From a virus, in the IMG/VR virus record IMGVR_UViG_3300045988_122866, positions 1-26,981 of that record: a stretch of DNA of 26,981 nucleotides; one strand, 5' to 3'. The position numbers were made by a program, and so were the translations under genes. Below the pieces are notes generated by a model. That model worked only from the letters and a program-made list of their open reading frames with translations. It searched no databases and had not been told where the DNA came from. This document shows, in pieces, positions 991 to 14,929 of the stretch; the stretch's first letter is position 1; each line of letters opens with the position of its first letter.

Positions 991-998
991 TTGAATAT

Positions 999-1940: not shown

Positions 1941-2008
1941 TTCTTTTGCCCCCTTTCAAGTATGATTATAACACCGCCGTCAGCAAATGTCAAGAGAAAT
2001 TTTTGGGA

Positions 2009-2038: not shown

Positions 2039-2040
2039 AA

Positions 2041-2816: not shown

Positions 2817-2963
2817 TTGACAAAATTGGCGGGGCGTGGTATAATGGAAAATTCGGACCGCTGCGTACGCTGGCGGTCCGCCCATTTTATCACAAAAATC
2901 CGCGTTTGTCAATAGTCAAAATAGACAAAAAAAACTGCCCATTTTTGGGCAGTTTTTTATTTT
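2817..2963. promoter_or_regulatory. Leader module copy A with convergent promoters. Plus promoter: TTGACA about 2817-2822, N17, TGGTATAAT about 2840-2845. GC hairpin 2854-2880 (cggaccgc/gcggtccg). Minus promoter: -10 about 2884-2889, -35 about 2907-2912. Bidirectional terminator 2935-2952 (ctgccca/tgggcag) between an A-run and a T-run.
   Basis: Both promoters have exact 17-bp spacing. The hairpin sits at about +1 of both transcripts. The overlapping track ORFs 2557..2820 and 2709..2912 are artefacts. Confidence 0.7.
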
Positions 2964-3192
2964 AGTCCAGCAGGTTAATTTCGCCGGGAATTGCGAAAGA
3001 ATCAGCGTCCAGCGTGGAATTGTAGTCCTCGGTAAAGAGTTCAATCATTCCACACTCCATGACGTAATTCTGAACCGACCGCCGAACGTTGTTCCAAAGG
3101 TCAGTTTTTCGGCTTTCCGCGCGGGCTTCCTGTATCTGGATAATGAGTTCGTCCAGTTTCTCGGCGGTCATGTAATTAAAATCCAAATCCAT
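2962..3192 (-). CDS. Hypothetical small protein (start at ATG, M3 of the track ORF)
   Basis: SD AAGGGGGAG. TAA stop. Closely follows CDS 3195..3473 as a two-gene unit. Confidence 0.5.
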   Translation of the reverse strand: MDLDFNYMTAEKLDELIIQIQEARAESRKTDLWNNVRRSVQNYVMECGMIELFTEDYNSTLDADSFAIPGEINLLD

Positions 3193-3194
3193 TT

Positions 3195-3473
3195 TCAAAA
3201 CTCCCCCTTAATGGCTTCTTTCCACGCGTCCCAGCCGAATTTTTCCTTGCTATCCAGTTCCTTGCCAATGTCTTTTGCGGTCAGCAGGTCAAGCTCGTCC
3301 GCAATTTCATCTTCAAAGTTTACCCAAGAGTCGTAGGTCTGAATAATGAAAACTTCATCAGCTTCAAAGACGCCACCGCACTCGGCGCAGATAATATAGT
3401 CATGGTCGATTAAAATACCCATGTGAGGGTCATTGTCATCAGGGACTACAAAAAGGACTTGTTTAGCGTTCAT
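3195..3473 (-). CDS. Hypothetical small CxxC-containing protein. Start at the third ATG (MNAKQVLF…).
   Basis: SD AAGAGGTG 7 nt upstream. The first two ATGs lie at or upstream of the predicted transcription start of promoter 3503-3531. TGA stop. Confidence 0.5.
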   Translation of the reverse strand: MNAKQVLFVVPDDNDPHMGILIDHDYIICAECGGVFEADEVFIIQTYDSWVNFEDEIADELDLLTAKDIGKELDSKEKFGWDAWKEAIKGEF

Positions 3474-3502
3474 GTGAAACACCTCTTTCATTTGATACAT
3501 TG

Positions 3503-3541
3503 ATTATACCATAGGGAATAGGACTTGTCAAGCCCTATTCC
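3503..3541 (-). promoter_or_regulatory. Consensus promoter (TTGACA-17-TGGTATAAT) with the -35 inside a 9-bp inverted repeat GGGAATAGG…CCTATTCCC
   Basis: Read directly. The inverted repeat also lies just downstream of the stop of the exonuclease gene. Confidence 0.65.
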
Positions 3542-3551
3542 CCTATTTTTT

Positions 3552-4328
3552 TTAGCTCATGTTTATCATGGGATTTTCCTTAATGTTTCGCATGAGCGCG
3601 CGCTGAAACTCGGTAGGCTTGGGGCGTTCCACCGTGGGAGTTTTGAAAAGGGACTTTTCCATTTCCTTGTGCTGTCGGACACAATAGCGCAGAATCTCAA
3701 CTTCAATGAGAACATCTTCTAATCCTGTGTGGGATTCATCAAAGCTGTCTTCACCGCTGATAAAGCGATAGAGAATTTCTGCGGTGAAACGGAGCTGTCC
3801 GTTCTTGGTCTTGTAGCCATTCTTTTCGCAATAGTCGCGGTAAGTGGGCATTTTGCCCATAACCTGTCGCGCCATTTTCAACGTGTCCCAAACTTCAAGG
3901 CCGTAGGGGAAGAAATAGCGATACTTGCTTTTCGTGTCCCATCTTTGCGCGTTGTTGCAGGCGTTAAGGTCGAACCGCATATTGTGAGCGCAGACAAAAG
4001 AGCAGTTATAACGCTCGACACATTCGCAGAACGCAAGACGAATTTCGTAAAGGTCAGCCATAATGCGAGTGCCGTTTTGAATGTCCTCAATGTAGCGGGG
4101 AATCTTATCGGCATAGTATGTGGACTGCATAAGGTCGCGCTCGTAGCAGAAAATGTCGCGATTCACAAAAGAATGAGTTTCATAAACATTTCCCTTGGAA
4201 TCAATGACCGCCCACCCAAAGTCGTAGGGAAGCACATTTGACATATCCAGCTTATCGCCGTCCTGAATGGTGTTTGCAGTTTCCGTGTCCAGCATAATAC
4301 CGTAGTTCCTGCGCCTATCAATACCCAT
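3552..4328 (-). CDS. DnaQ-like DEDDh 3'-5' exonuclease
   Basis: Motifs MLDTETA (Exo I), CAHNMRFDLN (Exo II) and HTGLEDV (Exo III with His). SD GGAGACG. TAA stop. Confidence 0.75.
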   Translation of the reverse strand: MGIDRRRNYGIMLDTETANTIQDGDKLDMSNVLPYDFGWAVIDSKGNVYETHSFVNRDIFCYERDLMQSTYYADKIPRYIEDIQNGTRIMADLYEIRLAFCECVERYNCSFVCAHNMRFDLNACNNAQRWDTKSKYRYFFPYGLEVWDTLKMARQVMGKMPTYRDYCEKNGYKTKNGQLRFTAEILYRFISGEDSFDESHTGLEDVLIEVEILRYCVRQHKEMEKSLFKTPTVERPKPTEFQRALMRNIKENPMINMS

Positions 4329-4357
4329 TTTATCGTCTCCTATTGGAAAAGTAGATT

Positions 4358-4385
4358 GAGGTTTACCATCGTTCTCTCAACCTCT
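4358..4385 (-). repeat. Conserved 5'-UTR stem-loop element, copy 2, in the leader of the exonuclease gene
   Basis: Near-identical to 1431-1460. Lies between promoter (TTGACA-17-TATACT about 4387-4415) and the SD. Confidence 0.6.
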
Positions 4386-4435
4386 AAATATAGTATAGCA
4401 CTTTGCTATTGGTTTGTCAATAGTTTTTTTGTAGG

Positions 4436-4466
4436 GCAGGGGATTTTTTTTATCCCCTGCCCTTTT
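4436..4466. terminator. Hairpin gggcagggga-T8-tcccctgccc followed by a T-run
   Basis: 10-bp inverted repeat just beyond the stop of gene 4471..4845. Confidence 0.6.
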
Positions 4467-4470
4467 CCCT

Positions 4471-4845
4471 TTACGCGAGGGAGAAGTAGGACTTGCGCTT
4501 GTCAACCGTCTTGACAACCGTGCCTGCATCAATCATCTGACGCAGAAGAGCAGAAACGCGCTGGTTGGAATACTCCGCAAGCTCGGGAACGCCCTTGATG
4601 AGGTCGGTCACCGTATACAGCTTGTCAAGGTTGGCGGTCATCTCGTCCAGAATGACCTGCTTCACGGCGTCATTCTCCATCTGCTTGGCCGTGGGCTTCT
4701 TGTCGCCCGCGTTCTTCTTGGCGAGCAGTTCAATCTCATGCTCGATGAACGCCACCATATCAGGATTTGCCTGAACCTCGCTCATTTTGAGCAGAGCCTC
4801 GAAACGGTCGCGCTTAGTGAGCTTCTTAGTAGTAGAAGTAGCCAT
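4471..4845 (-). CDS. Winged-helix DNA-binding protein, paralog 2. Start at M18 (MATSTTKKLTKRDRF…).
   Basis: N-terminus and RBS match paralog 2041..2418. Promoter about 4880-4915 (TTGACA-18-TATAAT). TAA stop. Confidence 0.6.
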   Translation of the reverse strand: MATSTTKKLTKRDRFEALLKMSEVQANPDMVAFIEHEIELLAKKNAGDKKPTAKQMENDAVKQVILDEMTANLDKLYTVTDLIKGVPELAEYSNQRVSALLRQMIDAGTVVKTVDKRKSYFSLA

Positions 4846-5345
4846 AGTATCAATTCCTTTCTGGTTTTTAAGACTGTCCTTGTCTATGGTAGTCATTATA
4901 TCATAGGCGGGAGTAGGTTGTCAATAGGTTTTTGCAATTTTTTTTAGGGGCGGTCGCGAGGTTTATTACTATACATCTTGTTTATACCTACCTTTATCTA
5001 TACTCTTAAACCAATTCAAAATTTACTAAGCCATTAGTTTTTAAGGCGGTGGACGAGCATCAGAAATCATCTTGTTTTTACCTCTCTCATTTGATGTATT
5101 CATTATACCCTACGTAGAACGGTTTGTCAAGGGGTTTTTCAAACTTTTTTTGAAAGTTTGTTCGGCACGCCACGCTTGGAACATTCCGTCGGATTTTGGT
5201 ATAATGGTCAAAGGAACTGCCTTTCCGCAGGTCTTACTCTTTCCTCCTGACATTATGTAGTATAGCAGATTGGTAATAATTTGTCTATTGATAAAATAAC
5301 CAAATAACGGGAAAAAATAAAATTGAAATTTGTACGAAATTTCTC

Positions 5346-5490
5346 TTGACAAAAATGCTGGCAGGGTGTATAATGGTAAATTCCGGTCGCAACATGCGTT
5401 AGCGACCGGCCAATTTTAGCACATTCAGATGGTTTTGTCAATAGTCAAAGTAAACAAAAAAATCTCCCCATTTTTGGGGAGATTTTCTTT
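5346..5490. promoter_or_regulatory. Leader module copy B. Plus promoter: TTGACA about 5346-5351, N17, TATAAT about 5369-5374. Hairpin 5383-5409 (ccggtcgc/gcgaccgg). Minus promoter: -10 about 5413-5418, -35 about 5436-5441. Terminator 5462-5483 (atctcccc/ggggagat).
   Basis: Same architecture as copy A. The hairpin stem sequence differs but pairing is preserved. Confidence 0.7.
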
Positions 5491-5747
5491 TAGCCAATCA
5501 CATTGACTTCGGTTTTGACAGGCGTTACCATCTTGTCGCGCGAGAACTCGCGAACCTGACCCGTTTCAAGATTCACCGCGTAGCAATACTGCGAACCTCT
5601 CGACCGGACAAACGGCGTGTTGTTGTTGCTGTCAATTTTGAGATACATTCCCATACCGACCCCATTGGAGCGCGGAGTGGTGAACGTGCCACCGCTGAGA
5701 ATGTTGATAATTTGAAGCTGACCCTTAGTGCCAAAATTTACTTTCAT
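5490..5747 (-). CDS. Hypothetical small protein (start at MKVNFGT…)
   Basis: SD AAGAGGGA. TAA stop. Closely follows CDS 5762..6076. Confidence 0.5.
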   Translation of the reverse strand: MKVNFGTKGQLQIINILSGGTFTTPRSNGVGMGMYLKIDSNNNTPFVRSRGSQYCYAVNLETGQVREFSRDKMVTPVKTEVNVIG

Positions 5748-5761
5748 TTTTATTCCCTCTT

Positions 5762-6076
5762 TCAAAATTCTTCTAAAAAGTGAATCGGCTTATGGTTTGG
5801 TCTGAAAAATGCCATTCCCTCGGTATAAAGAGAATTAAACAAATCTGCGGACACTTCAAACCATTCCGTGCCGCTAATGCGATTGCCTAACTCACTTAAA
5901 GTCAGATGACAAGAATTTTCCATGTCTCGACTTCCGGCGCAAGTGCTACGCATTATCGCTTTCGGATTATGGCTATAATAGCTTTTACGACGCTTTGCAA
6001 GGTTTTTAGTGCCGTCAGAATAGCCAACTTTAACCAAATGGCTATTGGTTAAATTATCCATCATCAAATACAGCAT
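5762..6076 (-). CDS. T5orf172/GIY-YIG-like domain protein
   Basis: LVKVGYSDGTKNLAKRRKSY … EWFEVS resembles the T5orf172 (MUG113) signature. SD GAGGT. TGA stop. Confidence 0.5.
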   Translation of the reverse strand: MLYLMMDNLTNSHLVKVGYSDGTKNLAKRRKSYYSHNPKAIMRSTCAGSRDMENSCHLTLSELGNRISGTEWFEVSADLFNSLYTEGMAFFRPNHKPIHFLEEF

Positions 6077-6232
6077 TTTTACCTCACAGCAGATGGGTAT
6101 TAACCCATTCTGCGGTCACAAGTCCGATTTCCTTAGAGACAACCGTTTCATAGCGGTAATTACCGCCATCAGTTCGTCCGGTCACTTTGGCGAGAACGCC
6201 AAGAGTAAGCCAAAAGTAAGGCATCATTTTTA

Positions 6233-6439
6233 TCACCCCTTATTGCCGACCGAGAAGATGGACTGTAAAAGCACGAGAATAATCCAAATTGCGAGTGCCA
6301 ACTTCCACGAAAATACGATGACGAAAGTGCCGATTGCGGTGATACCAAGAGCGGGAAGAAGCCAACAGAGAAGCCAAACCAAACCAGAGGTAAGCAGGAA
6401 CGAAACAGCGAGAGACAGCAGAATCAAAAGAACAATCAT
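6233..6439 (-). CDS. Small membrane protein (two predicted TM helices)
   Basis: Hydrophobic throughout. Promoter with hairpin-embedded -35 at about 6455-6502. TGA stop. Confidence 0.5.
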   Translation of the reverse strand: MIVLLILLSLAVSFLLTSGLVWLLCWLLPALGITAIGTFVIVFSWKLALAIWIILVLLQSIFSVGNKG

Positions 6440-6494
6440 TTTATTTTCCCCTTTTCATTTGATGTATTTATTATACCATTGGAGTAGGGCTTTG

Positions 6495-6995
6495 TCAAGC
6501 CCTTTTCTCCAAAAGTTCCGAAAGTTTTTCGATAATGTTTACTGCGGTCGGGTCAATGGTAGCGCCCAAGTGCCAACCATTCCGAACCTTTTCATTATCG
6601 TCAACCAAGATAGACACGTCATAGCGGTCGCGCACGCTGTCGGCCTTAGTCGCGCCATACTGGACGCCGTGGAAGTGGTCATAGTGGAAGCCCTGTTCTT
6701 CAAGCCACGCGCGTTTTGCTTCACGCACGAGGTTTTTGTATTCCTCGCTCGAATCCTTAGAGAGCCAAGTGATGATATTGATTTCCCAACCCTCGGCGCG
6801 GAGAAGTTCGCAAACCTCATTCAATTCAGCCATGTCGCACATGGGAACGGCAGTTCGATAGGGCTTAGGATTTTCCGAACGGAGAAGCGCAAGCCAATCC
6901 TTGACGCCGTAGAGGTCAGCGATAGTGCCGTCCATATCAAAGTTGATGGAGCGTCGAGTGGCTACAACGTGGGACTTAATGTAAGTGATTTTCAT
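6495..6995 (-). CDS. HAD-superfamily 5'(3')-deoxyribonucleotidase-like protein
   Basis: HAD motif I FDMDGTIADL and motif III-like ILVDDN. The fold family resembles the T5 Dmp / NT5C type. TGA stop overlaps the next promoter's -35. Confidence 0.6.
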   Translation of the reverse strand: MKITYIKSHVVATRRSINFDMDGTIADLYGVKDWLALLRSENPKPYRTAVPMCDMAELNEVCELLRAEGWEINIITWLSKDSSEEYKNLVREAKRAWLEEQGFHYDHFHGVQYGATKADSVRDRYDVSILVDDNEKVRNGWHLGATIDPTAVNIIEKLSELLEKRA

Positions 6996-7064
6996 TGGTA
7001 TTTACCCCTTTCCTTTACTGTATCTGTATTATACCATACGTTTGCGCAGTTGTCAAGAGAAATT

Positions 7065-7358
7065 TTAGCAATTTTTCGTTTTATTTATCCACTCTTTCCA
7101 CTGGTCTTCGGCAAACTTTTTATATTCTTCCTGCCAAAGACCCCGTGCGATGACATCTTTTACCGCGTCATCAATAGAAAGATATTGGTCGAGAAGAACA
7201 AAGTCCTCGCAAAAGAACCGAGTTCGACCAAAGAATTTGCGGTTAGGGCGGATAACTTCATAGACATAGATGAATAAGAAAGCCCCATACTCATCTCCGC
7301 TGTATGCCTTGACCTCAAAGGTTCTTCCCTCATACTCATAAGTTTTCGGTTTACTCAT
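7065..7358 (-). CDS. Hypothetical protein (97 aa)
   Basis: Track ORF with promoter at about 7380-7418. TAA stop. Confidence 0.5.
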   Translation of the reverse strand: MSKPKTYEYEGRTFEVKAYSGDEYGAFLFIYVYEVIRPNRKFFGRTRFFCEDFVLLDQYLSIDDAVKDVIARGLWQEEYKKFAEDQWKEWINKTKNC

Positions 7359-7426
7359 AGCACTTACCTCTTTCCTTTACTATACCCATAGTATATCAGA
7401 TACTTCTGGATTTGTCAAGAGTTTTT

Positions 7427-7558
7427 TTAATTTTCTTCTTCATAATTTTCGTCTTCTTCTTCACAAGGCGCGATGGGGCTTTCACAGTGGCAACAGGCGA
7501 AATCATCATTTTCACCTTTATAATAATAGCCACAATTAAAACTTTCACAAAATGACAT
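7427..7558 (-). CDS. Micro-ORF, about 43 aa, Cys-rich and acidic (MSFCESFNCGYYYKGENDDFACCHCESPIAPCEEEDENYEEEN). Coordinates +/-2.
   Basis: SD TAGGGGGT 8 nt upstream. Follows 7565..7708. Absent from the track because it falls below the size cutoff. Confidence 0.35.
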   Translation of the reverse strand: MSFCESFNCGYYYKGENDDFACCHCESPIAPCEEEDENYEEEN

Positions 7559-7564
7559 ACTATT

Positions 7565-7708
7565 TTACCCCCTAAAAGATAAGAAATTAAGCAAAATCAG
7601 CACAGGAATAGCGTAGACGATATTGAAATAGTCCCACCCGAGACTTTCACAGGAATAAGCAAAAATAAAGCCAAAAACGAGGCCGAAAATGCCGATTAAA
7701 ATAATCAT
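7565..7708 (-). CDS. Small single-pass membrane protein (start M15). ATGA overlap with the upstream stop.
   Basis: SD GAGGAT. The start codon overlaps the TGA of 7705..7968, suggesting translational coupling. Confidence 0.45.
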   Translation of the reverse strand: MIILIGIFGLVFGFIFAYSCESLGWDYFNIVYAIPVLILLNFLSFRG

Positions 7709-7968
7709 TCTAAATCCTCTATATGACCGTAGTGTTCGTTGATATGCCATTCAAGATAGGCATTAGTCGCAATCTGAATTTCTCTATCCAGCCAGTTATA
7801 AAAATCCTCGGGGTCGCGGGCCATGCGTTCATCAATGATATCTTTGAGAGAAACGCGGTGAGCAAGGAATTCCGAAATATCAAGAGAATCCATAGAAGAA
7901 AGAAGCTCTTCCACACATTCTCCACGAGTAGAGAACTTTTCAGTAGAAAAATCGTGAGTGTAATACAT
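7705..7968 (-). CDS. Hypothetical protein (87 aa)
   Basis: Track ORF. Lies downstream of module C's minus promoter and has its own promoter at about 7990-8035. Confidence 0.5.
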   Translation of the reverse strand: MYYTHDFSTEKFSTRGECVEELLSSMDSLDISEFLAHRVSLKDIIDERMARDPEDFYNWLDREIQIATNAYLEWHINEHYGHIEDLE

Positions 7969-8087
7969 TGTTTATATCCCCTTTCCTTTACGGTAATCAT
8001 AGTATAGCAGATTATTACATTCTTGTCTATTGACAAAATGCCCAAATTCGGGAAAATAATTAGTTGGACTTTTGGCTAAATTTCCTA

Positions 8088-8240
8088 TTGACAAATTGCT
8101 GGGATGGTGGTATAATGGAATTTCCGGCCGTGGCAGGCGCAAACGGCCGGCCATTTTATCACACTATTGGATTTTTGTCAATAGGCAAAATAAATAAAAT
8201 TTTGAGACGAGATTTGGTTATCTCGTCTCAAAATATTTTT
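8088..8240. promoter_or_regulatory. Leader module copy C. Plus promoter: TTGACA about 8088-8093, N17, TGGTATAAT about 8111-8116. Hairpin 8124-8150 (ccggccg/cggccgg). Minus promoter: -10 about 8153-8158, -35 about 8176-8181. Terminator 8203-8230 (11-bp stem tgagacgagat/atctcgtctca).
   Basis: Same architecture as copies A and B. Track ORF 8064..8261 is an artefact. Confidence 0.7.
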
Positions 8241-8691
8241 AACGTTCAGATACAATGCTGAGGTAGCGGACAATCATATCCATTTCGCAACCCATGTCCT
8301 GCTGGTCGCAAACCGCATAACCCACAAGGTCGCCGTCCGCACAAATCGGGTAAACACCATAAGTGTTATTGAAAACAAATGGCTTTCTTTTAAAATCCCA
8401 CTGGGTCGAAACATAAGGCGGAAAGTTTTCCATACCCCGCAGTTTCACGGTAGTATCATAGATTGCGATGGGACGCAGACCGGAATTCGATGCCATTGTA
8501 ATAGCGGTTCGCAGAGCTTCTTCGGTCAAAGAGCCAAGCACTGAATACCTCTTGAAGCAAACGCAGTCGTTATCTTCAATGAAGATTTCGAGCGGGTCTC
8601 CCTCGCGAATCTTCAAAGTCCGGCGAATCTCTTTCGGAATGACCACACGTCCAAGGTCATCAATTCTGCGGATAATACCAGTAGCTTTCAT
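8239..8691 (-). CDS. AbrB/SpoVT-family (swapped-hairpin) DNA-binding regulator with a C-terminal domain of unknown function
   Basis: N-terminus GIIRRIDDLGRVVIPKEIRRTLKIREGDPLEIF matches the AbrB-N/MazE-like fold. TAA stop immediately followed by module C's terminator. Confidence 0.65.
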   Translation of the reverse strand: MKATGIIRRIDDLGRVVIPKEIRRTLKIREGDPLEIFIEDNDCVCFKRYSVLGSLTEEALRTAITMASNSGLRPIAIYDTTVKLRGMENFPPYVSTQWDFKRKPFVFNNTYGVYPICADGDLVGYAVCDQQDMGCEMDMIVRYLSIVSER

Positions 8692-8755
8692 TTTAATTTT
8701 CCCCTTTCATTTAATACGTTAAGTATAGCAGAATAAAAGGCTTTTGTCAAGCCCT

Positions 8756-9229
8756 TTATTCAAGATTTTTGCTTTCCGCAACAAAATATTTTGCTTCATA
8801 CTGATTGGCGATAGCCTTGACTTTTGCGCTTTCCTTTTGGGTCGCGCAGTAGAAATTGAAAAGCGTATGTTTATCGCTCAATTCAATATAAGAGTGTGGG
8901 ACATCATGTAAGTCAAAGTCAATGGTATTAGTGTATTTTGTTGGGACAGTCAGCTCGACTTTCCATAACCGGTCTTTGCGGGCTTTCTCTTCAATCCACT
9001 TGACAAAGTAGACGCCTACGAAATTACAAACAGCAGTAATAGCCATTTTCAACCAGATAGGCATACCGTCCGCGGAAGTCAGCACAATCACATAGGAATA
9101 AAAACCATAAGTGATAGCGTTGATAAGAGACGCGCTAACTTTTCCGCCGTTGACCGTCAAGATGCTTTTGATAGTTGACAGAATCACATTCACCGCCGTG
9201 CAAAGCGCGAACAGAAGAATTGTATTCAT
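8756..9229 (-). CDS. Membrane protein (157 aa, hydrophobic N-terminal half)
   Basis: Track ORF with several predicted TM segments. TAA stop inside a hairpin-embedded -35 element. Confidence 0.5.
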   Translation of the reverse strand: MNTILLFALCTAVNVILSTIKSILTVNGGKVSASLINAITYGFYSYVIVLTSADGMPIWLKMAITAVCNFVGVYFVKWIEEKARKDRLWKVELTVPTKYTNTIDFDLHDVPHSYIELSDKHTLFNFYCATQKESAKVKAIANQYEAKYFVAESKNLE

Positions 9230-9474
9230 TCTACCACCTCAATATCGCAGTAAATACAGTCGGTAATATCGACGTATTCCTCAAAGCTCATTCTTTTATC
9301 GTCGCGATGGGTGAAGTCGATATAGGCATCTTCGCCATGAAGATTATTCTCTTCGTTATATGCGCGGGTGGCATTGTCAAAAGCCTTAATAGCGTCAGCT
9401 TCATTATAAACTACCACTTCTTTGACTTCGGGAGCATCATACCAAATAGTATATTTCTTTTTCATTATTATCAC
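9226..9474 (-). CDS. Hypothetical protein (82 aa)
   Basis: Track ORF. The 4-nt overlap with 8756..9229 suggests coupling. TGA stop. Confidence 0.5.
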   Translation of the reverse strand: MIIMKKKYTIWYDAPEVKEVVVYNEADAIKAFDNATRAYNEENNLHGEDAYIDFTHRDDKRMSFEEYVDITDCIYCDIEVVE

Positions 9475-9528
9475 CCTTTCCTTTTTCTATTATAATAATA
9501 TCATATTATAATAGAAATGTCAATAGAG

Positions 9529-9693
9529 AGTTTTTAATTTACTCTTTTAATTTTTCTAATAGGTCATCAACACATTCGTAGCTGATACTTCTGCGGTCGC
9601 ACTCGTTGGACAAAGGACAACACGCGCAGTCATTAAAGGTTTCCGTCCAAGCGCGCAACCAGTCAATCAAGCGCAAAGTATTAACTTCCTCAT
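9529..9693 (-). CDS. Micro-ORF, about 54 aa, Cys-rich (…NDCACCPLSNECDRRSISYEC…). Its ATG overlaps the TGA of 9690..10037. Coordinates +/-3.
   Basis: ATGA overlap with the upstream stop. Below the track's size cutoff. Confidence 0.3.
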
Positions 9694-10037
9694 ACATTGT
9701 TATCATTCTCCTTTACTCGGACAAAAAAGACCTTGTTATAGATTTTTGTTGCTTTAAGGTCAATCCAGAAATACACGTTTCCGCATACTCGATAGATTTT
9801 ACAAGTCTCTCCGCTAACCTTTTTGACTTCCTCAAATTTCTCTGGTGTTGTAGGGTGGAAAACCGTCAGTTTGAGAAATATGCAATAGAAAGCCAAAGGA
9901 ACGAAGCCGATAATCATAGCAATCCATGCGAGAACATCAGTTAAAGTGTTTTCCCATTCACACCACTCATCGGTGATTGTAGCGAACGCAATACCCACGC
10001 AAAACGCGAGAATCAACCAATACCATGCAACCATCAT
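9690..10037 (-). CDS. Membrane protein (115 aa)
   Basis: Two or three hydrophobic helices. First gene downstream of module D's minus promoter. TGA stop. Confidence 0.5.
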   Translation of the reverse strand: MMVAWYWLILAFCVGIAFATITDEWCEWENTLTDVLAWIAMIIGFVPLAFYCIFLKLTVFHPTTPEKFEEVKKVSGETCKIYRVCGNVYFWIDLKATKIYNKVFFVRVKENDNNV

Positions 10038-10141
10038 TTTAGTCCCCCTTTATTTGTTGTATACATCTTACCACATTATAGGATTTTTGTCTATTGGCAT
10101 TTTACACAAAAATTCGTGCGAAAATTTGTTGAACTTACCTC

Positions 10142-10265
10142 TTGACAAAAAACTCGGCGCGCCACAGTCGTTCGCGCGCCGACGATTTTATCACATTCAA
10201 GGAACTTTGTCAATAGTCAAAACAAATAAAAAATTCAGGCGAGATTTGGTTATCTCGCCTGAAAA
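10142..10265 (-). promoter_or_regulatory. Leader module copy D. Hairpin 10156-10180 (ggcgcgcc…gcgcgcc). Minus promoter: -10 about 10185-10190, -35 about 10208-10213. Terminator 10237-10260 (aggcgagat/atctcgcct). The plus-strand -10 is deleted.
   Basis: A TTGACA lies on the plus strand at about 10142, but no -10 follows at 17 bp. The rest of the core is conserved. Confidence 0.6.
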
Positions 10266-10493
10266 TTACACGTCCCACATGGCTTCCGCAATCCAGAAGT
10301 ATTCATAGCGGAGCTTTGACTGAATCGCAAACAAAGCGTCCGCAATTTCTCCACCGTCTCTGCGGTCTTCCACATTTGAAAATTCCTTGCTCTCTTTCGC
10401 AATTCTTTGAGCTAATTTTTCAATGGCATCTGCCTGTTCTCTCAAAGCCTGCGGGATAGGTTTTTCATTCATTATTTGTTTCCCCCTTTGCAA
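10266..10493 (-). CDS. Hypothetical protein (75 aa)
   Basis: Track ORF. SD AAAGGGGGAAAC. The TAA stop abuts module D's terminator. Confidence 0.5.
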   Translation of the reverse strand: MQRGKQIMNEKPIPQALREQADAIEKLAQRIAKESKEFSNVEDRRDGGEIADALFAIQSKLRYEYFWIAEAMWDV

Positions 10494-10618
10494 AGTTAGA
10501 GGTTAGCTCTAACGTATGTCCGCATTCATCGCAATACCAATAGTAATAAACTGTTCCATACCGGCCATGAGAAGCATTTACAAATTTCATTTCATTTCCG
10601 CAGATGGAGCAATAGCCG

Positions 10619-10822
10619 TCATTCCATGCCTTTTTTATCGGCATTGTGGTCAGCGACTACTGCGCCCGTCATACCGTAGCCAAGAGCGCACGAAATGAGA
10701 AGACCAACCAACAGTCTGACTATTGGGTGAAATTTATCCATGTTGCACCAACAGACAAGACAGACAAATAGCGCGAGGACTGCACTAAAAATTCCGCCAA
10801 CGATTAAAAATTCCATTCCCAT
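10619..10822 (-). CDS. Small membrane protein (67 aa, two TM helices)
   Basis: Track ORF. Start is coupled (TAAAAATGG) to the upstream micro-ORF. Confidence 0.5.
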   Translation of the reverse strand: MGMEFLIVGGIFSAVLALFVCLVCWCNMDKFHPIVRLLVGLLISCALGYGMTGAVVADHNADKKGME

Positions 10823-10824
10823 TT

Positions 10825-10896
10825 TTATTTCCCCTTTTCACATTTAACGCATTGAGCGTGTGTTCCGCACTTTCCATCACAATAAGGACATTTCAT
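10825..10896 (-). CDS. Micro-ORF, 23 aa, five Cys (MKCPYCDGKCGTHAQCVKCEKGK), zinc-ribbon-like. Coordinates +/-1.
   Basis: SD AAAGGGGAA. Its ATG lies 1 nt after the TAA of the preceding 38-aa ORF. Confidence 0.4.
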   Translation of the reverse strand: MKCPYCDGKCGTHAQCVKCEKGK

Positions 10897-10897
10897 T

Positions 10898-11014
10898 TTA
10901 GTTCCCCTTTCTCAGACTCTCTTCAATTTCTTCCCATTCGCTTCTGAACAATTCAATGTTCGTATTGCCGATACACTCTAAAATAGCTTTAATCTGTTCC
11001 TCAGTAAATTTCAT
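10898..11014 (-). CDS. Micro-ORF, 38 aa (MKFTEEQIKAILECIGNTNIELFRSEWEEIEESLRKGN). Coordinates +/-1.
   Basis: SD AAAGGGGAA. Promoter with hairpin-embedded -35 at about 11046-11078. Confidence 0.4.
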   Translation of the reverse strand: MKFTEEQIKAILECIGNTNIELFRSEWEEIEESLRKGN

Positions 11015-11092
11015 TTTTTTTATTCCCCTTTCCTTTGATACATTAAGTATAGCAGAAAAAGGGCTTTTTGTCAAGCCCTTTTCTTATTTTTT

Positions 11093-11455
11093 TCAATTTT
11101 CTTTTCTAATGGAGTAGTAGCTCCGACTTCCCTTTTTGGTGTAGGTCAACTTTCTGTCAATCCAGCAAAGATGACCACAATACCACGAAATAGTGGCGCA
11201 AGAATATTCCTTGCCAGTCTCACGGTAAAGAATAAACTGAATTTCCGTAGGGCGCAGGGGCTTTTCCGCCTTTGAGAGAACATCGAGCATCATGTTTTTC
11301 ATCATGGTGTTGCGGATTTCCTGTTTCAGTTTCCGCGCTTCCTGGGCTTCTTCATACTGTGAGCAAGCTCTCTCCGCGTGGATTTCATCAATTCCGGTGA
11401 AAGTGCCATTGTCAAGGAATTTCTTCAAAAGGCTATAAGTTTCAAAGTTCATCAT
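11093..11455 (-). CDS. Hypothetical protein with a C-terminal winged-helix-like segment
   Basis: …LRPTEIQFILYRETGKEYSCATISWYCGHLCWIDRKLTYTKKGSRSYYSI looks like a wHTH. TGA stop. Confidence 0.45.
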   Translation of the reverse strand: MMNFETYSLLKKFLDNGTFTGIDEIHAERACSQYEEAQEARKLKQEIRNTMMKNMMLDVLSKAEKPLRPTEIQFILYRETGKEYSCATISWYCGHLCWIDRKLTYTKKGSRSYYSIRKEN

Positions 11456-11555
11456 GTCAGTATTCCCTTTCCTTTATTGTGCTTTTATTATAGCATCTGC
11501 TTTTGAATTTGTCAAGAAGTTTTTTGGAAAAAGAGGGAAAAATTTTCCCTCTTTT

Positions 11556-11825
11556 TTACCACTTTACAGTAAGAATACCGTTTGAGTAAGAAGTGGTATA
11601 GCCATAATTCCGCAAAAGATTTTTCAGAGCTTCTTTTACAGCTTCATCTTCAATGGCAACGAGACAGCGAGACAGATAATTTTCGCCCTTTTCCGCGCGG
11701 TCTTCAATATCTTTCATCAGATTTTCTTCGAGATAGGCACGGGCCGTAGCAGTATCTTCTGCGCGCTTGGCGTCGCGAGTTTCCTTGGCGATAGTTGCTA
11801 TTTCGTGAGCATATTTAATTTCCAT
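11556..11825 (-). CDS. Hypothetical protein (89 aa)
   Basis: Track ORF. Promoter with hairpin-embedded -35 at about 11845-11889. TAA stop. Confidence 0.5.
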   Translation of the reverse strand: MEIKYAHEIATIAKETRDAKRAEDTATARAYLEENLMKDIEDRAEKGENYLSRCLVAIEDEAVKEALKNLLRNYGYTTSYSNGILTVKW

Positions 11826-11903
11826 GGTGTTTCTCCCTTTCCTTTATTGTATCTTTATTGTAGCATATAGGGCTTGTTTTGTCAAGCCCTATATACATTT
11901 TTT

Positions 11904-12212
11904 TTAACAGTAAGCCAGATTCCCGCGCGCCCAGCCATATACGCTGATTTGATTGCACGCCTTGCCAATTTCAAGCGCCTGCTTCTTGGTCTGCACCCTC
12001 TTGGACTTGTCAACATAATAGATGCCGTTCGCAAGCCATACGCCGCAGTTTCCGCCGAAGTCCTTAACCGCATTGATAGCTTCGCGTGCGGTCTTACATT
12101 CAACGCCGTTGGTAGCGACTTGCCAGCCGGACTTGTAGTTGACTTTCTTGCCATATTTGAGAGTCAGGCCGTCATTTTCAGCGAGCTTGCGAATAGAACG
12201 AATGTTAATCAT
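11904..12212 (-). CDS. Hypothetical protein (about 102 aa, start MINIRSIRKL…)
   Basis: SD AAAGGGAT. First gene downstream of module E's minus promoter. TAA stop. Confidence 0.5.
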   Translation of the reverse strand: MINIRSIRKLAENDGLTLKYGKKVNYKSGWQVATNGVECKTAREAINAVKDFGGNCGVWLANGIYYVDKSKRVQTKKQALEIGKACNQISVYGWARGNLAYC

Positions 12213-12341
12213 GTTGTTATCCCTTTCCGGTTTGGTAGGTTTTCCTTCCCTTACTGTGATTATAGTATAGCACCGATTCGGGATTCTGTCTATTGACATT
12301 ATGCACAAACTTTCGCCATAAAAATTTGTGCAATCCGCCTA

Positions 12342-12470
12342 TTGACAAAAACTCGGCGCGCCAGGTCCGTTCGCGCGCCGGCCGATTATACTACAAAGTT
12401 TTGGGACTGTCAATAGACAAAATGACAAAAAAATTCGGCAGGATTTTGTGTATCCTGCCGAATTTTTTTT
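12342..12470 (-). promoter_or_regulatory. Leader module copy E. Hairpin 12355-12379 (ggcgcgcc…gcgcgcc). Minus promoter: -10 TATAAT about 12385-12390, -35 about 12408-12413. Terminator 12434-12462 (11-bp stem ttcggcaggat/atcctgccgaa plus a T8 run).
   Basis: Same core as copy D. The terminator directly follows the TAA of 12469..12663. Confidence 0.6.
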
Positions 12471-12663
12471 AATCTTTCCAACTCTCGATGACTTCACCGG
12501 TCATTGCGTCGATAATGTCAACCGAGAGGACGTTGTCCGCGTCCATAAACTTCTGACCGAGGGCGTATGCATTTTCCTGTCCCGCGACAGACACTTCATA
12601 GCGATAATGCCCCATGTCGCCCGCCTTGTAGTTGTAGTAGTTAACAGAAACAATAAATAACAT
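12469..12663 (-). CDS. Hypothetical small protein (start MLFIVSVNYY…)
   Basis: SD AAAGGGGAT. Promoter at about 12680-12720. TAA stop. Confidence 0.5.
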   Translation of the reverse strand: MLFIVSVNYYNYKAGDMGHYRYEVSVAGQENAYALGQKFMDADNVLSVDIIDAMTGEVIESWKD

Positions 12664-12748
12664 TTGGTTTATCCCCTTTCTTTTTATACTCTTATTATAC
12701 CATAGATTCAAGATTTGTCAAGGACTTTTTTCAAGAAAGAAGCGGGGC

Positions 12749-12940
12749 TTAGTAGCCCCGCTTTTCCAAACGGTCCAGGCGTCCAGCAAGGATTCTCGCA
12801 AGAACGGGCTTTGTCCATTTCATCAGACTATCAGCAGTGCTTTGGCAGTTTGCCCAAACCTCCCAAGTTTGGCCCTCGCGAATAATGTCAGCCTTGCGCA
12901 TCTTCATGAACTTCTCGTAATACATTTCGAAAGTATCCAT
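12749..12940 (-). CDS. Hypothetical small protein (63 aa)
   Basis: Track ORF. TAA stop inside hairpin gcggggct-tagt-agccccgc. Confidence 0.5.
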   Translation of the reverse strand: MDTFEMYYEKFMKMRKADIIREGQTWEVWANCQSTADSLMKWTKPVLARILAGRLDRLEKRGY

Positions 12941-13048
12941 AACTAACCTTTCTGGTGTTTGGGATTTTCCTTTCCCTTTCTGATATTATAATACCACAGA
13001 CCGCAAAGAATGTCAAGTGTTTTTTTTCAAAAAAAAAAGAAAAGTTTT

Positions 13049-13171
13049 TCAACTTCTCTTTCTACGGCGAATCGCTCTCTTTACGCGGTGCTCCACGTAT
13101 TCGATGAGCGCACCCGCGCCGATAACACCAACATAGATAGCGAGAAGAACAAGACCATCGTGAGTAGACAT
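13049..13171 (-). CDS. Micro-ORF, about 40 aa, with one TM helix and a basic tail (MSTHDGLVLLAIYVGVIGAGALIEYVEHRVKRAIRRRKRS). Coordinates +/-2.
   Basis: SD AAGAGGTAAATCAA. Promoter with hairpin-embedded -35 at about 13205-13239. The overlapping plus-strand track ORF 13010..13432 is an artefact. Confidence 0.35.
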   Translation of the reverse strand: MSTHDGLVLLAIYVGVIGAGALIEYVEHRVKRAIRRRKRS

Positions 13172-13251
13172 TTGATTTACCTCTTTCTTTCTTTTGATGT
13201 ATTCATTATACCAAACAAAGGGGCTTTTGTCAAGCCCCTTTTTTATTTTTT

Positions 13252-13530
13252 TTACAGTTCTTTTCCAACCTTAACAAATACGATTTTCTCCGGCAAGACT
13301 TCGATGCCCTTAATGCCCGCTTCATTGACTTCCTTGTTCGTGCAAGTCCACCCAAACTCATCTAATGCGTCCCATTCACCGTTCCCACTGGGAGTCCAAG
13401 TGTTGAATCCGTCATCAATCATCACGTCATAGCCCTTGCTGTAAGTCTCCATAATCTGTTCGATAGTCATTTGTTGTATTCCCCTTTCCTTTGATGATAC
13501 TATTATAGCATTTCGGGATAGGAATGTCAA
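13252..13530 (-). CDS. Hypothetical protein (92 aa)
   Basis: Track ORF. Promoter at about 13495-13530 (TGTCAAG … TATAAT). TAA stop. Confidence 0.5.
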   Translation of the reverse strand: MTFLSRNAIIVSSKERGIQQMTIEQIMETYSKGYDVMIDDGFNTWTPSGNGEWDALDEFGWTCTNKEVNEAGIKGIEVLPEKIVFVKVGKEL

Positions 13531-13653
13531 GTGGTTTTTGGCAAAAAATGGAAAAAATTTTGCTTTAACGCTTTACTGTGGTAAAGTTCGGGCTGGGACG
13601 CCCTACACGCGCACAACGGCGTAAGAGAAAGAGCGGGAAGCCCGCTCCCGCCC

Positions 13654-13863
13654 TTAATACATTTCGCTACTGGGTTCAACTGTGAAATACTCAACATTCC
13701 GCAAGTCGAGCTTGCCATAGGACTTGTCATTATACATTGTAGCACCTGTCGCAAGTAAGTCATTCATCTTACCTGCAATCTCCATAGCGCGCTGTTCCTC
13801 GAACGCCTGCTGGAAGAGATAGCCCTGACCGCCCTTAGTGTAATAAACAATGCCGTAAATCAT
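13654..13863 (-). CDS. Hypothetical protein (69 aa)
   Basis: SD AAAGGGGAA. Terminator gagcggg-aag-cccgctc follows the TAA. Overlapping track ORF 13527..13763 rejected. Confidence 0.5.
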   Translation of the reverse strand: MIYGIVYYTKGGQGYLFQQAFEEQRAMEIAGKMNDLLATGATMYNDKSYGKLDLRNVEYFTVEPSSEMY

Positions 13864-13993
13864 TTTTCATTCCCCTTTCCTTTTGTGATTATAGAATACC
13901 ACATTCTAACTGATTTGTCAAGACCTTTTTGCAAAAAATCTTTGTTAATTTTTTAACAATCTACGCCGTTAGGAAGGGAGCATTACTGCTCCC

Positions 13994-14326: not shown

Positions 14327-14413
14327 TACCGCGCATTTGTCAAGACCTTTTTTACTCTTCTCTGCTTGTTAATTTTTTAACAATCTTCGCCGATCCGCAA
14401 GAAAGAGAGAGAC

Positions 14414-14779: not shown

Positions 14780-14929
14780 TTTGATTTACCTCTTTCTTTT
14801 TGATGATACAAGTATAGCACATGGCTACTGGATTGTCAATAGTCATTTTGCACAAATGTGATGGCGTGGTTTCGGGTATTTTGACGATTGTGCATTATGA
14901 CGAAGTTTCGGCGAGAAATTTGTGCAAAC

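What the first reader, a model, noticed from the sequence alone, without database searches (positions are those of the whole stretch)
3514..13239. -35 hexamers embedded in GC-clamped palindromes (GGGCTT-TTGTCA-AAGCCC type): combined terminator, promoter and operator elements
At least seven early promoters have their minus-strand TTGACA inside a short inverted repeat. Approximate positions are 3514-3541 (GGGAATAGG…CCTATTCCC), 6487-6502, 8737-8756, 11061-11078, 11868-11889, 13220-13239 (GGGGCTT…AAGCCCC) and 4400-4416 (CTATTG…CAATAG). Each lies right after the stop of the preceding gene. The same 20-25 bp can thus act as an RNA hairpin terminator for the upstream transcript and as the -35 for the next gene. 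It is also an obvious dyad operator for a dimeric repressor that would occlude the -35.
Basis: seen in the sequence. Interest (0 to 1): 0.7.

Follow-up and report, generated by a model that had tools for sequence, protein, structure and literature searches.

The report
Terminator-like hairpins built into phage early promoters
Six of about 30 near-consensus early promoters in this gut phage have their -35 box in the loop of a conserved GC-rich hairpin, most likely a space-saving promoter-plus-terminator cassette like the PeSL elements of T4-type phages and not a repressor operator.

Summary
Six minus-strand sigma-A/sigma-70 promoters have TTGACA in the loop or top of a stable hairpin. Their -35 boxes lie at 3526-3531, 6493-6498, 8745-8750, 11069-11074, 11880-11885 and 13228-13233. 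Folding energies are -15 to -22 kcal/mol, with z-scores of -3.8 to -8. Each hairpin starts 0-10 nt after the upstream stop codon. The seventh site (4400-4416) is a weak 6-bp AT-rich palindrome with its own standalone hairpin upstream.

In related IMG/VR gut phages:
- 102 of 894 unique promoters have such a hairpin, against 1.8 expected.
- Stems keep pairing through compensatory changes.
- Mismatches lean towards G.U on the sense strand.
- Embedded hairpins almost never co-occur with a standalone terminator-type hairpin upstream (4% against 44%).

I read them as compacted terminators or attenuators for the upstream gene, fused to the next promoter. Only about one third, and 3 of the 6 here, have a canonical sense U-tract, so termination may be partial.

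The operator idea fails. Arm spacing varies from 7 to 12 nt, the dyad centre moves, and stem sequences differ.

The closest known elements are PeSL promoter/stem-loop cassettes of T4-like phages, one subclass of which overlaps the -35. This is a new member of a known kind in a TAG-recoded gut phage lineage. Interest is moderate.

The parts
3503..3543 (-). Composite element P3531. -10 TATAAT at 3503-3508, -35 TTGACA at 3526-3531, and a 14-bp hairpin at 3513-3543 (GGGGAAUAGGGCUU-GAC-AAGUCCUAUUCCC, with one G.U pair). It follows the stop codon of gene 3552-4328 and drives gene 3195-3473.
   Evidence: -21.4 kcal/mol, z -5.3. The orthologue in L037/L013 has a compensatory AACAGG/CCTGTT change. There is no sense U-tract; the T-run is on the plus strand only.
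6470..6512 (-). Composite element P6498. -10 at 6470-6475, -35 at 6493-6498, a core 7-bp hairpin at 6486-6503 (GGGCUU-GACA-AAGCCC type) and an outer helix UUGGAG/CUCCAA extending to 6479-6512. The TGA inside TTGACA (6495-6497) is the stop codon of gene 6495-6995. It drives gene 6233-6439.
   Evidence: -18.9 kcal/mol, z -4.2. Orthologues have GGGGC/GCCCC variants. There is no sense U-tract.
8722..8761 (-). Composite element P8750. -10 TATACT at 8722-8727, -35 at 8745-8750, and a 13-bp hairpin at 8731-8761 followed by UUUUAUUCUG. The stop codon TAA of gene 8756-9229 lies in the left arm. It drives the AbrB/MazE-like gene 8239-8691.
   Evidence: -16.9 kcal/mol, z -6.3. It passes the sense U-tract test. 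Orthologues carry sense-strand U.G wobbles.
11046..11083 (-). Composite element P11074. -10 TATACT at 11046-11051, -35 at 11069-11074, and an 11-bp hairpin at 11056-11083 followed by UUUUUCUG. It follows the stop codon of gene 11093-11455 and drives a multi-gene unit from 11014 to 10266.
   Evidence: -15.4 kcal/mol, z -4.1. It passes the sense U-tract test. L033 has a compensatory AAAGGGGC/GCCCCTTT change.
11857..11896 (-). Composite element P11885. -10 TACAAT at 11857-11862, -35 at 11880-11885, and a 14-bp hairpin at 11863-11896 that reaches the extended -10 TG. It follows the stop codon of gene 11904-12212 and drives gene 11556-11825.
   Evidence: -22.4 kcal/mol, z -8.0. L030 and L025 have a compensatory TAGAGGGC/GCCCTCTA change. 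L028/L005 carry a chimeric copy with a foreign right arm. There is no canonical sense U-tract.
13205..13241 (-). Composite element P13233. -10 TATAAT at 13205-13210, -35 at 13228-13233, and a 10-bp hairpin at 13217-13241 followed by GUUUGG. It has T-tracts on both strands, so it is terminator-like in both directions. It follows the stop codon of gene 13252-13470 and drives gene 13049-13171.
   Evidence: listed as terminator-like on both strands; -16.6 kcal/mol, z -3.8.
4392..4423 (-). It has a good promoter but only a 6-bp AT-rich palindrome, CUAUUG-ACAAAC-CAAUAG. A standalone hairpin at 4433-4463 lies between it and the upstream stop codon at 4471. It is probably not a member of the class.
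   Evidence: -4.7 kcal/mol, z -2.6. In orthologues the pairing is partly lost.
14811..14851 (-). The -35 lies in the loop of a moderate, interrupted hairpin.
   Evidence: -10.4 kcal/mol, z -2.2. One orthologue (L025) has a better stem at -15.5 kcal/mol.
12740..12763 (-). Comparator: a standalone intrinsic-terminator-like hairpin with a sense T-tract, 19 nt upstream of the -35 of P12721. This is the 'uncompacted' arrangement. Others of this kind are at 2929-2958, 5456-5489, 8199-8234, 10234-10263 and 12427-12469.
   Evidence: Family-wide, standalone hairpins sit a median of 20 nt upstream of the -35, and 62% have a sense T-tail.

Best explanation
These are compact promoter-plus-terminator cassettes.

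The double-stranded DNA is a strong host-RNA-polymerase (sigma-A/sigma-70 type) early promoter. When RNA polymerase arrives from the upstream early gene, the same 25-35 nt are transcribed into a GC-clamped hairpin whose loop is the -35 sequence.

That hairpin ends or attenuates the upstream transcript, and/or leaves it with a protective 3' stem-loop, just before the next transcription start site. Each small early gene is therefore expressed mainly from its own promoter, and the promoter is shielded from read-through.

The element is the space-saving alternative to the arrangement 'stop codon, standalone terminator, about 20 nt, promoter' that the same phages use elsewhere.

Shown here:
- the promoters match consensus;
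- the hairpins are far beyond chance;
- pairing is conserved by compensatory change;
- embedded and standalone hairpins are mutually exclusive.

Inferred: that the selected structure is the sense RNA, and that it causes termination. Efficiency is probably variable, because only about one third have a canonical U-tract.

As repeated near-identical cassettes, they probably also serve as crossover points for gene-cassette shuffling, as PeSLs do.
For: 1. Region and promoters. About 30 near-consensus promoters, one per small gene or short operon, lie on the minus strand between 665 and 16218.

2. Hairpin strength. Six promoters have hairpins of -15 to -22 kcal/mol centred on the -35. The rest fold at 0 to -9 kcal/mol.

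3. Family-wide excess.
- 102 of 894 unique promoters carry a -35-centred hairpin, against 1.8 +/- 1.0 after shuffling the flanks.
- 120 of 121 strong palindromes within the promoter context have the -35 inside the loop, mostly centred on or just 3' of the hexamer.

4. Compensatory change. Orthologues located through their flanks, not through palindromy, keep pairing by double changes:
- 3531: AATAGG/CCTATT becomes AACAGG/CCTGTT.
- 11885: TATAGGGC/GCCCTATA becomes TAGAGGGC/GCCCTCTA.
- 11074: AAAAGGGC/GCCCTTTT becomes AAAGGGGC/GCCCCTTT.
- Register-grouped alignments show 9 of 17 and 8 of 15 pairs changed on both sides. The covariation score is about four times that of any slid control in the first alignment and 2.6 times or more in the second.

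5. Strand bias. G.T mismatches, which pair as G.U in sense RNA, outnumber A.C:
- 60 to 18 in raw counts.
- 33 to 17 after clustering related sequences, p = 0.03.
- Standalone terminator-type hairpins show the same ratio, 113 to 40.

6. Mutual exclusivity. A standalone hairpin lies upstream of only 4% of embedded-hairpin promoters, against 44% of the others (Fisher p = 1.6e-18).

7. Compaction. The upstream stop codon is a median of 8 nt from the -35 for embedded hairpins, against 42 nt for standalone ones.

8. Canonical tails. Three of the six (13233, 11074, 8750) have a canonical sense U-tract.

9. Precedent. PeSL stem-loops of phages RB49 and phi1, some of which overlap the -35, lowered downstream lacZ expression about as much as the rrnB T1 terminator (PMC2839356). 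In the Listeria phage CKA15, transcript 3' ends mapped in the early-gene terminal repeat were efficient although not predicted as canonical terminators (PMC12282133).
Against: - No transcript 3'-end data exist for this phage or its relatives.
- Only 33 of 102 embedded hairpins, and 3 of the 6 in the window, have at least 5 T in 8 nt after the stem on the sense strand. That is little above the 22% background for promoter spacers.
- By contrast 86 of 102 have a T-run on the antisense strand. This is confounded, because 66% of hairpin-free promoters also have the A-rich UP-like region upstream.
- The strand bias is modest after removing related sequences (p = 0.03). Several single-genome orthologue variants carry A.C mismatches.
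- The promoter sets used for the statistics contain phylogenetically related sequences, so the p-values are optimistic.
- Synteny breakpoints are enriched at promoter zones in general and not specifically at hairpin promoters.
Confidence: 0.6

Rival explanations
1. The hairpins terminate antisense (plus-strand) transcription. They would protect early genes from RNA made in the opposite direction. The A-rich tract upstream of each -35 would then be the T-tract of a plus-strand terminator.
For: All six hairpins are followed by a T-run on the plus strand. The scan lists 8739, 11057, 11865 and 13217 as plus-strand terminator-like. Family-wide, 86 of 102 pass the antisense tail test against 33 of 102 for sense. 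Strong plus-strand promoters exist inside the region at 2817, 5346 and 8088.
Against: The A-rich tract is a general feature of these promoters; 66% of hairpin-free promoters have it. The wobble bias favours the sense RNA. The plus-strand promoters are each followed by their own hairpin and then by a bidirectional terminator before any embedded hairpin is reached. Exclusivity with sense-oriented standalone terminators and placement right after sense stop codons fit a sense function.
Confidence: 0.1
2. The hairpins do not terminate transcription. They are RNA processing or stability elements in read-through polycistronic early RNA. They would act either as 3' exonuclease barriers or as double-strand-specific RNase sites, as in T7 early RNA or SP82 early RNA cut by Bacillus RNase III (both cited from memory).
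For: Pairing is selected on the sense strand, and many copies lack a U-tract. Some relatives have stems of 16-17 bp at -25 to -30 kcal/mol.
Against: Stems in the window are 7-14 bp, short for RNase III substrates. Embedded hairpins replace standalone hairpins, most of which (62%) have canonical U-tracts and so look like true terminators. This rival overlaps the main explanation, since a terminator hairpin also stabilises the 3' end.
Confidence: 0.13
3. The dyad would be a binding site for a dimeric phage repressor, for example the AbrB-like protein 8239-8691 or the paralogous 124-125 aa proteins at 2041-2418 and 4471-4845. Binding would occlude the -35 and shut off a subset of early promoters.
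For: All six copies in the window share GGGC directly 5' of TTGACA and GCCC or GTCC in the spacer. DNA-binding-type proteins are encoded in the region.
Against: The spacing between GGGC and GCCC is 7, 8, 9, 9, 10 and 12 nt. The dyad centre ranges from +3 to +5.5 relative to the first T of the -35. Arm sequences differ among copies and relatives (GGGG, GGAC, GCGG, GACTA and others) while pairing is kept by compensatory change. Mismatches are strand-biased. The exclusivity with standalone terminators is unexplained by an operator.
Confidence: 0.05
4. The primary role is at the DNA level. The inverted repeats would be recombination or cruciform sites that mobilise gene cassettes (PeSL-type mini-circles) or make the promoter sensitive to supercoiling.
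For: Chimeric copies exist with the crossover at the shared GGGCTTGACAAAAGCCC core, in L028/L005 and L040. Also, 27 of 49 synteny breakpoint clusters fall in promoter zones that make up 25% of the region. PeSL mini-circles have been documented (PMC2839356).
Against: Breakpoints are not enriched at hairpin promoters relative to other promoters: 4 of 27, with 6 of 33 promoters being of the hairpin type. DNA-level symmetry does not predict the G.T over A.C bias. Homologous recombination needs only the repeated promoter and leader, not a hairpin.
Confidence: 0.1

Closest known systems
PeSL (promoter-early stem-loop) composite promoter-terminator motifs of T4-like phages RB49/phi1, PST and nt-1 (Arbiol et al. 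2010, PMC2839356; Comeau et al. 2014, PMC4122927)
   Same: - A near-consensus TTGACA-N17-TATAAT early promoter with an AT-rich upstream tract.
- A stem-loop that is often a G-run, a loop and a C-run.
- Placement between the stop codon of one small ORFan and the ribosome-binding site of the next.
- Many copies in a variable region of small genes.
- One of the five described subclasses has the stem-loop overlapping the -35.
- Chimeric copies and indel breakpoints at the cassettes.
   Different: - The phage lineage and host are different: a TAG-recoded gut phage, probably of Clostridia, against T4-like myoviruses of Gram-negative bacteria.
- In the family census here the promoter-embedded stem-loops sit almost exclusively with the -35 in the loop, 120 of 121. 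[quoted passage not shown]
- Only about 10-20% of promoters carry an embedded stem-loop.
- Terminator activity and mini-circles are untested here.
Canonical bidirectional intrinsic (Rho-independent) terminators
   Same: A GC-rich stem with a loop of 3-6 nt, an A-tract before and a T-tract after in 13233, 11074 and 8750, and a position right after a stop codon.
   Different: Half of the six lack a sense U-tract. The loop and spacer must also encode a -35 and leave a 17-nt spacer, so the tail is constrained by the -10.
Host-takeover early-gene clusters of SPO1-like phages (Herelleviridae): many small early genes, each with a strong sigma-A promoter
   Same: A dense array of very strong host-type promoters and strong ribosome-binding sites in front of small genes of unknown function. 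In the related Listeria phage CKA15, efficient transcript 3' ends in this region are not canonical terminators (PMC12282133).
   Different: I found no description of -35-in-loop hairpins for those phages in the papers I could read. The relationship of this phage to them is distant, about 40% amino-acid identity for one late protein.
Hairpin-form promoters: phage N4 virion-RNA-polymerase promoters and single-strand promoters of conjugative plasmids such as Frpo (from memory)
   Same: An inverted repeat at a promoter of genes expressed immediately after DNA entry.
   Different: Those promoters are recognised as extruded or single-stranded hairpins and lack a double-stranded consensus -35/-10 with a 17-nt spacing. 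Here the duplex form is a perfect host promoter, and the hairpin would destroy rather than create it.

Membership tests
PeSL-type composite promoter/stem-loop cassette | Near-consensus sigma-70-type early promoter with an AT-rich upstream tract | tested here: met
   The sites score 11-12 of 12 hexamer matches, with a 17-nt spacer, a TG before the -10 and an A-run upstream.
PeSL-type composite promoter/stem-loop cassette | A stable stem-loop within the promoter element, often a G-run, a loop and a C-run; one described subclass overlaps the -35 | tested here: met
   GGGC...GCCC stems fold at -15 to -22 kcal/mol with the -35 in the loop. The subclass definition is in PMC2839356.
PeSL-type composite promoter/stem-loop cassette | Many copies between small ORFans in a variable genome region | tested here: met
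   Six copies plus about 25 other promoters lie in 16 kb of mostly family-less small ORFs. Gene content varies among relatives that are about 90% identical.
PeSL-type composite promoter/stem-loop cassette | Indel and replacement breakpoints, and chimeric elements, at the cassettes in close relatives | tested here: inconclusive
   27 of 49 breakpoint clusters fall in promoter zones that cover 25% of the sequence, and chimeric copies exist in L028/L005 and L040. However, there is no excess at hairpin promoters over plain promoters.
PeSL-type composite promoter/stem-loop cassette | Demonstrated promoter and terminator activity, and mini-circle formation | not testable with these tools
   This needs reporter assays, inverse PCR or 3'-end mapping.
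Canonical intrinsic terminator (sense strand) | GC-rich stem of at least 5 bp with a loop of 3-8 nt | tested here: met
Canonical intrinsic terminator (sense strand) | U-tract (at least 5 U in 8 nt) directly after the stem on the transcribed strand | tested here: inconclusive
   Met for 13233, 11074 and 8750, and not met for 11885, 6498 and 3531. Family-wide it is met in 33 of 102, against a 22% background.
Canonical intrinsic terminator (sense strand) | Location just downstream of a same-strand stop codon, in place of another terminator | tested here: met
   The stop codon is 0-10 nt from the stem or inside it, at a median of 8 nt from the -35 family-wide. Embedded hairpins are exclusive with standalone hairpins, 4% against 44%.
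Canonical intrinsic terminator (sense strand) | Transcript 3' ends at the site | not testable with these tools
   No transcriptome data are available.
Dyad-symmetric repressor operator | Fixed half-site spacing and fixed position relative to the promoter | tested here: not met
   The arm spacing ranges from 7 to 12 nt in the six copies. The centre lies at +3.0 to +5.5 across the family.
Dyad-symmetric repressor operator | Conserved half-site sequence across copies and relatives | tested here: not met
   Only a G-rich/C-rich clamp is shared. The arms vary, with compensatory changes.
Dyad-symmetric repressor operator | Binding of a cognate protein | not testable with these tools
   This needs gel-shift or footprinting assays.

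The most novel reading that the evidence does not exclude
The strict '-35 in the loop' geometry may be functional rather than just compact. The nascent hairpin would form exactly when a read-through polymerase sits over the spacer and the -10, so the AT-rich TG-n-TATAAT stretch would serve as the weak RNA:DNA hybrid in place of a U-tract. Polymerase would then be released on top of the next promoter. This would be a U-tract-independent terminator and insulator that couples termination of one gene to clearing, or re-loading, of the next promoter.
Probability: 0.12. Interest if true: 0.6.

Novelty: new member of a known kind. Interest (0 to 1): 0.35.

Why it matters
If the reading is right, this uncultivated group of TAG-recoded gut phages organises its early genes as self-contained cassettes. 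Each would have a strong host-type promoter whose -35 also forms the loop of the preceding gene's terminator. That is the same solution T4-like phages reached with PeSLs.

This would extend the PeSL concept to phages of Gram-positive-type hosts. It would give a sequence signature for finding early regions in metagenomic phage genomes. It would also provide compact natural promoter/terminator parts.

It does not open a new mechanism unless U-tract-independent termination at the -10 is shown.

Tried and rejected
- Chance was rejected: shuffles give 1.8 embedded hairpins against 102 observed, and per-site z-scores are strongly negative.
- The operator reading was rejected on variable spacing, variable sequence and strand bias.
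- Megablast of the region against GenBank phages found nothing.
- Rfam found no known RNA family and ARAGORN found no tRNA in the window.
- Pfam and PHROGs gave no function for most early ORFs, so gene function did not help.
- A T-tail comparison measured after the outermost base pair showed no sense enrichment (2.78 against 3.06 T per 8 nt). I repeated it with trimmed stems, and sense tails were still present in only about one third.
- Breakpoint enrichment specific to hairpin promoters was looked for and not found.
- The ORF-end heuristic can pick the TGA of TTGACA in a wrong frame. I therefore use only its medians, not its count of stop codons lying inside the -35.
- The SPO1 genome paper could not be retrieved.
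- The phAss-1 paper does not discuss promoters or terminators.

Full report
**Setting**

The window has 38% G+C. From about 228 to 16200 it carries small genes on the minus strand, and from about 16350 onward it carries genes on the plus strand. The minus-strand part holds about 30 promoters that match TTGACA-17 nt-TATAAT at 10-12 of 12 positions. Most also have the extended -10 TG and an A-run upstream. Each is followed by a conserved leader, a strong ribosome-binding site and an ATG. The scan found 90 promoter-like sites where 37 +/- 7 were expected.

Most of the small proteins have no Pfam or PHROG function. The plus-strand genes look like late genes, for example a portal-like protein. They read through many in-frame TAG codons.

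The closest described relative of one late protein is the gut phage phAss-1 at 50% amino-acid identity. That phage is reported to decode TAG as Gln and to infect Clostridia (PMC10607447). The region is therefore the early-gene cluster of an uncultivated TAG-recoded gut phage.

**The observation**

The sense RNA folds at -15.4 to -22.4 kcal/mol, with z-scores of -3.8 to -8.0 and 0-1 of 200 shuffles folding as well. The other promoters of the region fold at 0 to -9 kcal/mol in the same frame, so two classes exist.

The upstream stop codon lies 0-10 nt from each stem or inside it:
- The TAA of gene 8756-9229 is in the left arm.
- The TGA of gene 6495-6995 is the TGA within TTGACA.

The seventh site (4400-4416) is a 6-bp AT-rich palindrome at -4.7 kcal/mol. 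A strong standalone hairpin (4433-4463) lies between it and the preceding gene, so I do not count it. A moderate extra case lies at 14817-14851.

**Relatives**

Two proteins of the region recovered 101 loci from IMG/VR. About 27 of these loci, drawn from roughly 15 contigs of 85-197 kb, align to the window at 79-92% nucleotide identity. More distant loci align at 66-75%.

Orthologues of the six elements were located through their flanking homology. They keep the hairpin, in several cases through changes on both sides of a pair:
- 3531: AATAGG/CCTATT becomes AACAGG/CCTGTT in L037/L013.
- 11885: TATAGGGC/GCCCTATA becomes TAGAGGGC/GCCCTCTA in L030 and L025.
- 11074: AAAAGGGC/GCCCTTTT becomes AAAGGGGC/GCCCCTTT in L033.

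Pairing is conserved.

In a census of all unique spacer-17 promoters in the window and these loci:
- 102 of 894 have a strong hairpin centred on the -35, against 1.8 +/- 1.0 after shuffling the flanks.
- 120 of 121 strong palindromes in the promoter context have the -35 inside the loop; most are centred on or just 3' of the hexamer, and about 20 are wide-loop or upstream-centred palindromes.
- Stem sequences are diverse, for example GCACAAGGGGC, ATTGCGG and GGATTTAGGGG.
- Grouped by register, 9 of 17 and 8 of 15 pairs show changes on both sides. The covariation score is 0.44 in the first alignment and 0.32 in the second, against at most 0.12 in any slid control.

These grouped sequences were selected for palindromy. 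They show that pairing, not sequence, is what the copies share. They do not prove structure on their own.

**Which strand, and what for**

Four lines of evidence point to the sense RNA, that is, the 3' end of the upstream gene's transcript.

1. With symmetrical scoring, G.T mismatches outnumber A.C by 60 to 18. G.T pairs as G.U in sense RNA, and A.C pairs as G.U in antisense RNA. After clustering related sequences the count is 33 to 17, p = 0.03.
2. The standalone intergenic hairpins of the same phages show the same bias, 113 to 40. Of these, 62% have a sense T-tail, so most look like ordinary intrinsic terminators. They end a median of 20 nt upstream of the next -35.
3. Embedded and standalone hairpins exclude each other. 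A standalone hairpin lies within about 130 nt upstream of 4% of embedded-hairpin promoters, against 44% of the others (Fisher p = 1.6e-18). The p-value is optimistic because the sequences are related.
4. In the embedded class the upstream ORF ends a median of 8 nt from the -35, against 42 nt when a standalone hairpin is present.

The simplest reading is that the embedded hairpin is the compacted form of the usual terminator. It uses the only freely variable sequence of the promoter, the 10-15 nt upstream of the -35 and the 17-nt spacer, as its two arms. That geometry forces the invariant -35 into the loop.

**The weak point**

A canonical terminator needs a U-tract. On the sense strand, 13233, 11074 and 8750 have one. 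11885, 6498 and 3531 do not. Family-wide the figure is 33 of 102, against a 22% background in hairpin-free spacers.

On the plus strand all six, and 86 of 102 family-wide, are followed by a T-run. However, this T-run is the complement of the A-rich UP-like tract that 66% of hairpin-free promoters also carry.

I therefore treat the elements as terminators or attenuators of variable strength, possibly working in both directions at three of the six sites. An antisense-terminator role and a pure RNA-stability role remain as rivals.

There is precedent for function without a textbook tail:
- A PeSL stem-loop reduced downstream lacZ expression about as much as the rrnB T1 terminator (PMC2839356).
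- Efficient transcript 3' ends in the early-gene terminal repeat of Listeria phage CKA15 were not predicted as intrinsic terminators (PMC12282133).

**The operator idea**

A dimeric repressor needs half-sites of conserved sequence at fixed spacing. That is not what the data show:
- The distance between GGGC and GCCC or GTCC is 7, 8, 9, 9, 10 and 12 nt in the six copies.
- The dyad centre moves from +3 to +5.5 within the -35.
- The arms differ in sequence within the genome and between relatives, while pairing is kept.
- Mismatches are strand-biased.
- An operator does not explain the exclusivity with standalone terminators.

Candidate DNA-binding proteins exist. One is an AbrB/MazE-like protein at 8239-8691. 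Two others are 72%-identical paralogues at 2041-2418 and 4471-4845. Nothing links them to these sites.

**Comparison with known elements**

The closest known elements are the PeSLs of T4-like phages. These pair a strong sigma-70-type early promoter and its AT-rich upstream tract with a stem-loop that is often a G-run, a loop and a C-run. They lie between small ORFans of hyperplastic regions. Five positional subclasses are described, one of which overlaps the -35. Promoter and terminator activity have been shown experimentally, and the elements take part in cassette shuffling through mini-circles (PMC2839356 and PMC4122927).

The elements here meet the architectural criteria. For shuffling the evidence is partial:
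- Synteny breakpoints between the window and its relatives fall in promoter zones 27 times out of 49, although those zones make up 25% of the sequence.
- Chimeric copies exist whose crossover lies in the shared GGGCTTGACAAAAGCCC core, in L028/L005 and L040.
- Hairpin promoters are not hit more often than plain promoters.

The differences from published PeSLs are:
- an unrelated phage lineage and a probable Gram-positive-type host;
- the near-exclusive -35-in-loop geometry;
- the presence of an embedded stem-loop in only about 10-20% of promoters.

The paper on the nearest described phage group does not mention promoters or terminators.

**Verdict**

The promoter reading is solid. The terminator reading is the best-supported function but remains inferred, and is probably partial for half of the sites. 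The operator reading is not supported.

This is a new member of a known kind of element, documented here with unusually good comparative evidence. Interest is moderate.

Noticed in passing
window 16354-26981, e.g. 20855-22600: Plus-strand late-type genes, including a portal-like ORF, read through many in-frame TAG codons and end at TAA. The minus-strand early genes read in the standard code. This is a TAG-recoded phage; the nearest described relative, phAss-1, is reported to decode TAG as Gln.
   Followed up: partly
window 783-988, 2752-2957, 5281-5486, 8021-8226, 10053-10258, 12253-12458 (minus strand): A module of about 200 bp occurs in six copies. Each has a bidirectional terminator, then a conserved minus-strand promoter (TTTTGACTATTGACA...TGTGATAAAAT), then directly a GC-rich hairpin plus TTT. 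The hairpin stems differ between copies but stay paired. Copies 2-4 have a consensus plus-strand promoter (2817, 5346, 8088) converging on the same hairpin; copies 5-6 have a plus-strand TTGACA there (10142, 12342) without a matching -10 in the scan, and copy 1 has none. In three copies (5281-5486, 8021-8226, 12253-12458) a TAGACA -35 promoter for the next gene follows. The modules look like a family of RNAs of about 40 nt made from both strands. There is no Rfam match.
   Followed up: partly
window 6493-6498: The -35 hexamer TTGACA of P6498 supplies the in-frame TGA stop codon of the upstream 166-aa gene (6495-6995), so coding sequence, hairpin arm and promoter overlap.
   Followed up: yes
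window 4950-5130 (minus strand): The perfect promoter P5130 (-35 at 5125-5130) is followed by about 150 nt containing only a 9-codon ORF before the next promoter (P4924). This may be a non-coding RNA or a leader peptide.
   Followed up: no
window 2041-2418 and 4471-4845 (minus strand): Two paralogous genes of 124-125 aa are 72% identical at the protein level and have identical ribosome-binding-site contexts. No Pfam family matched the longer 141-aa reading of 4471-4896; 2041-2418 itself was not scanned.
   Followed up: partly
window 8239-8691 (minus strand): This 150-aa protein has an AbrB/MazE-type N-terminal domain (Pfam PF04014, E = 3e-10). Its first roughly 50 residues are 60-80% identical in more than 60 IMG/VR phage contigs, far beyond this phage group.
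   Followed up: partly
window 16190-16330: This is a divergent control region between the early (minus-strand) and plus-strand gene blocks, with back-to-back promoters P16218 (minus) and P16301 (plus). P16218, the first early promoter, has no same-strand gene directly upstream in the window and has no hairpin.
   Followed up: no
window 16807-17409: This 200-aa protein matches the C-terminal part of a phage sigma-factor PHROG (phrog_5767, E = 3e-35) and has a C-terminal zinc-finger/HNH-like motif. It may be a candidate for the switch from early to later transcription.
   Followed up: no
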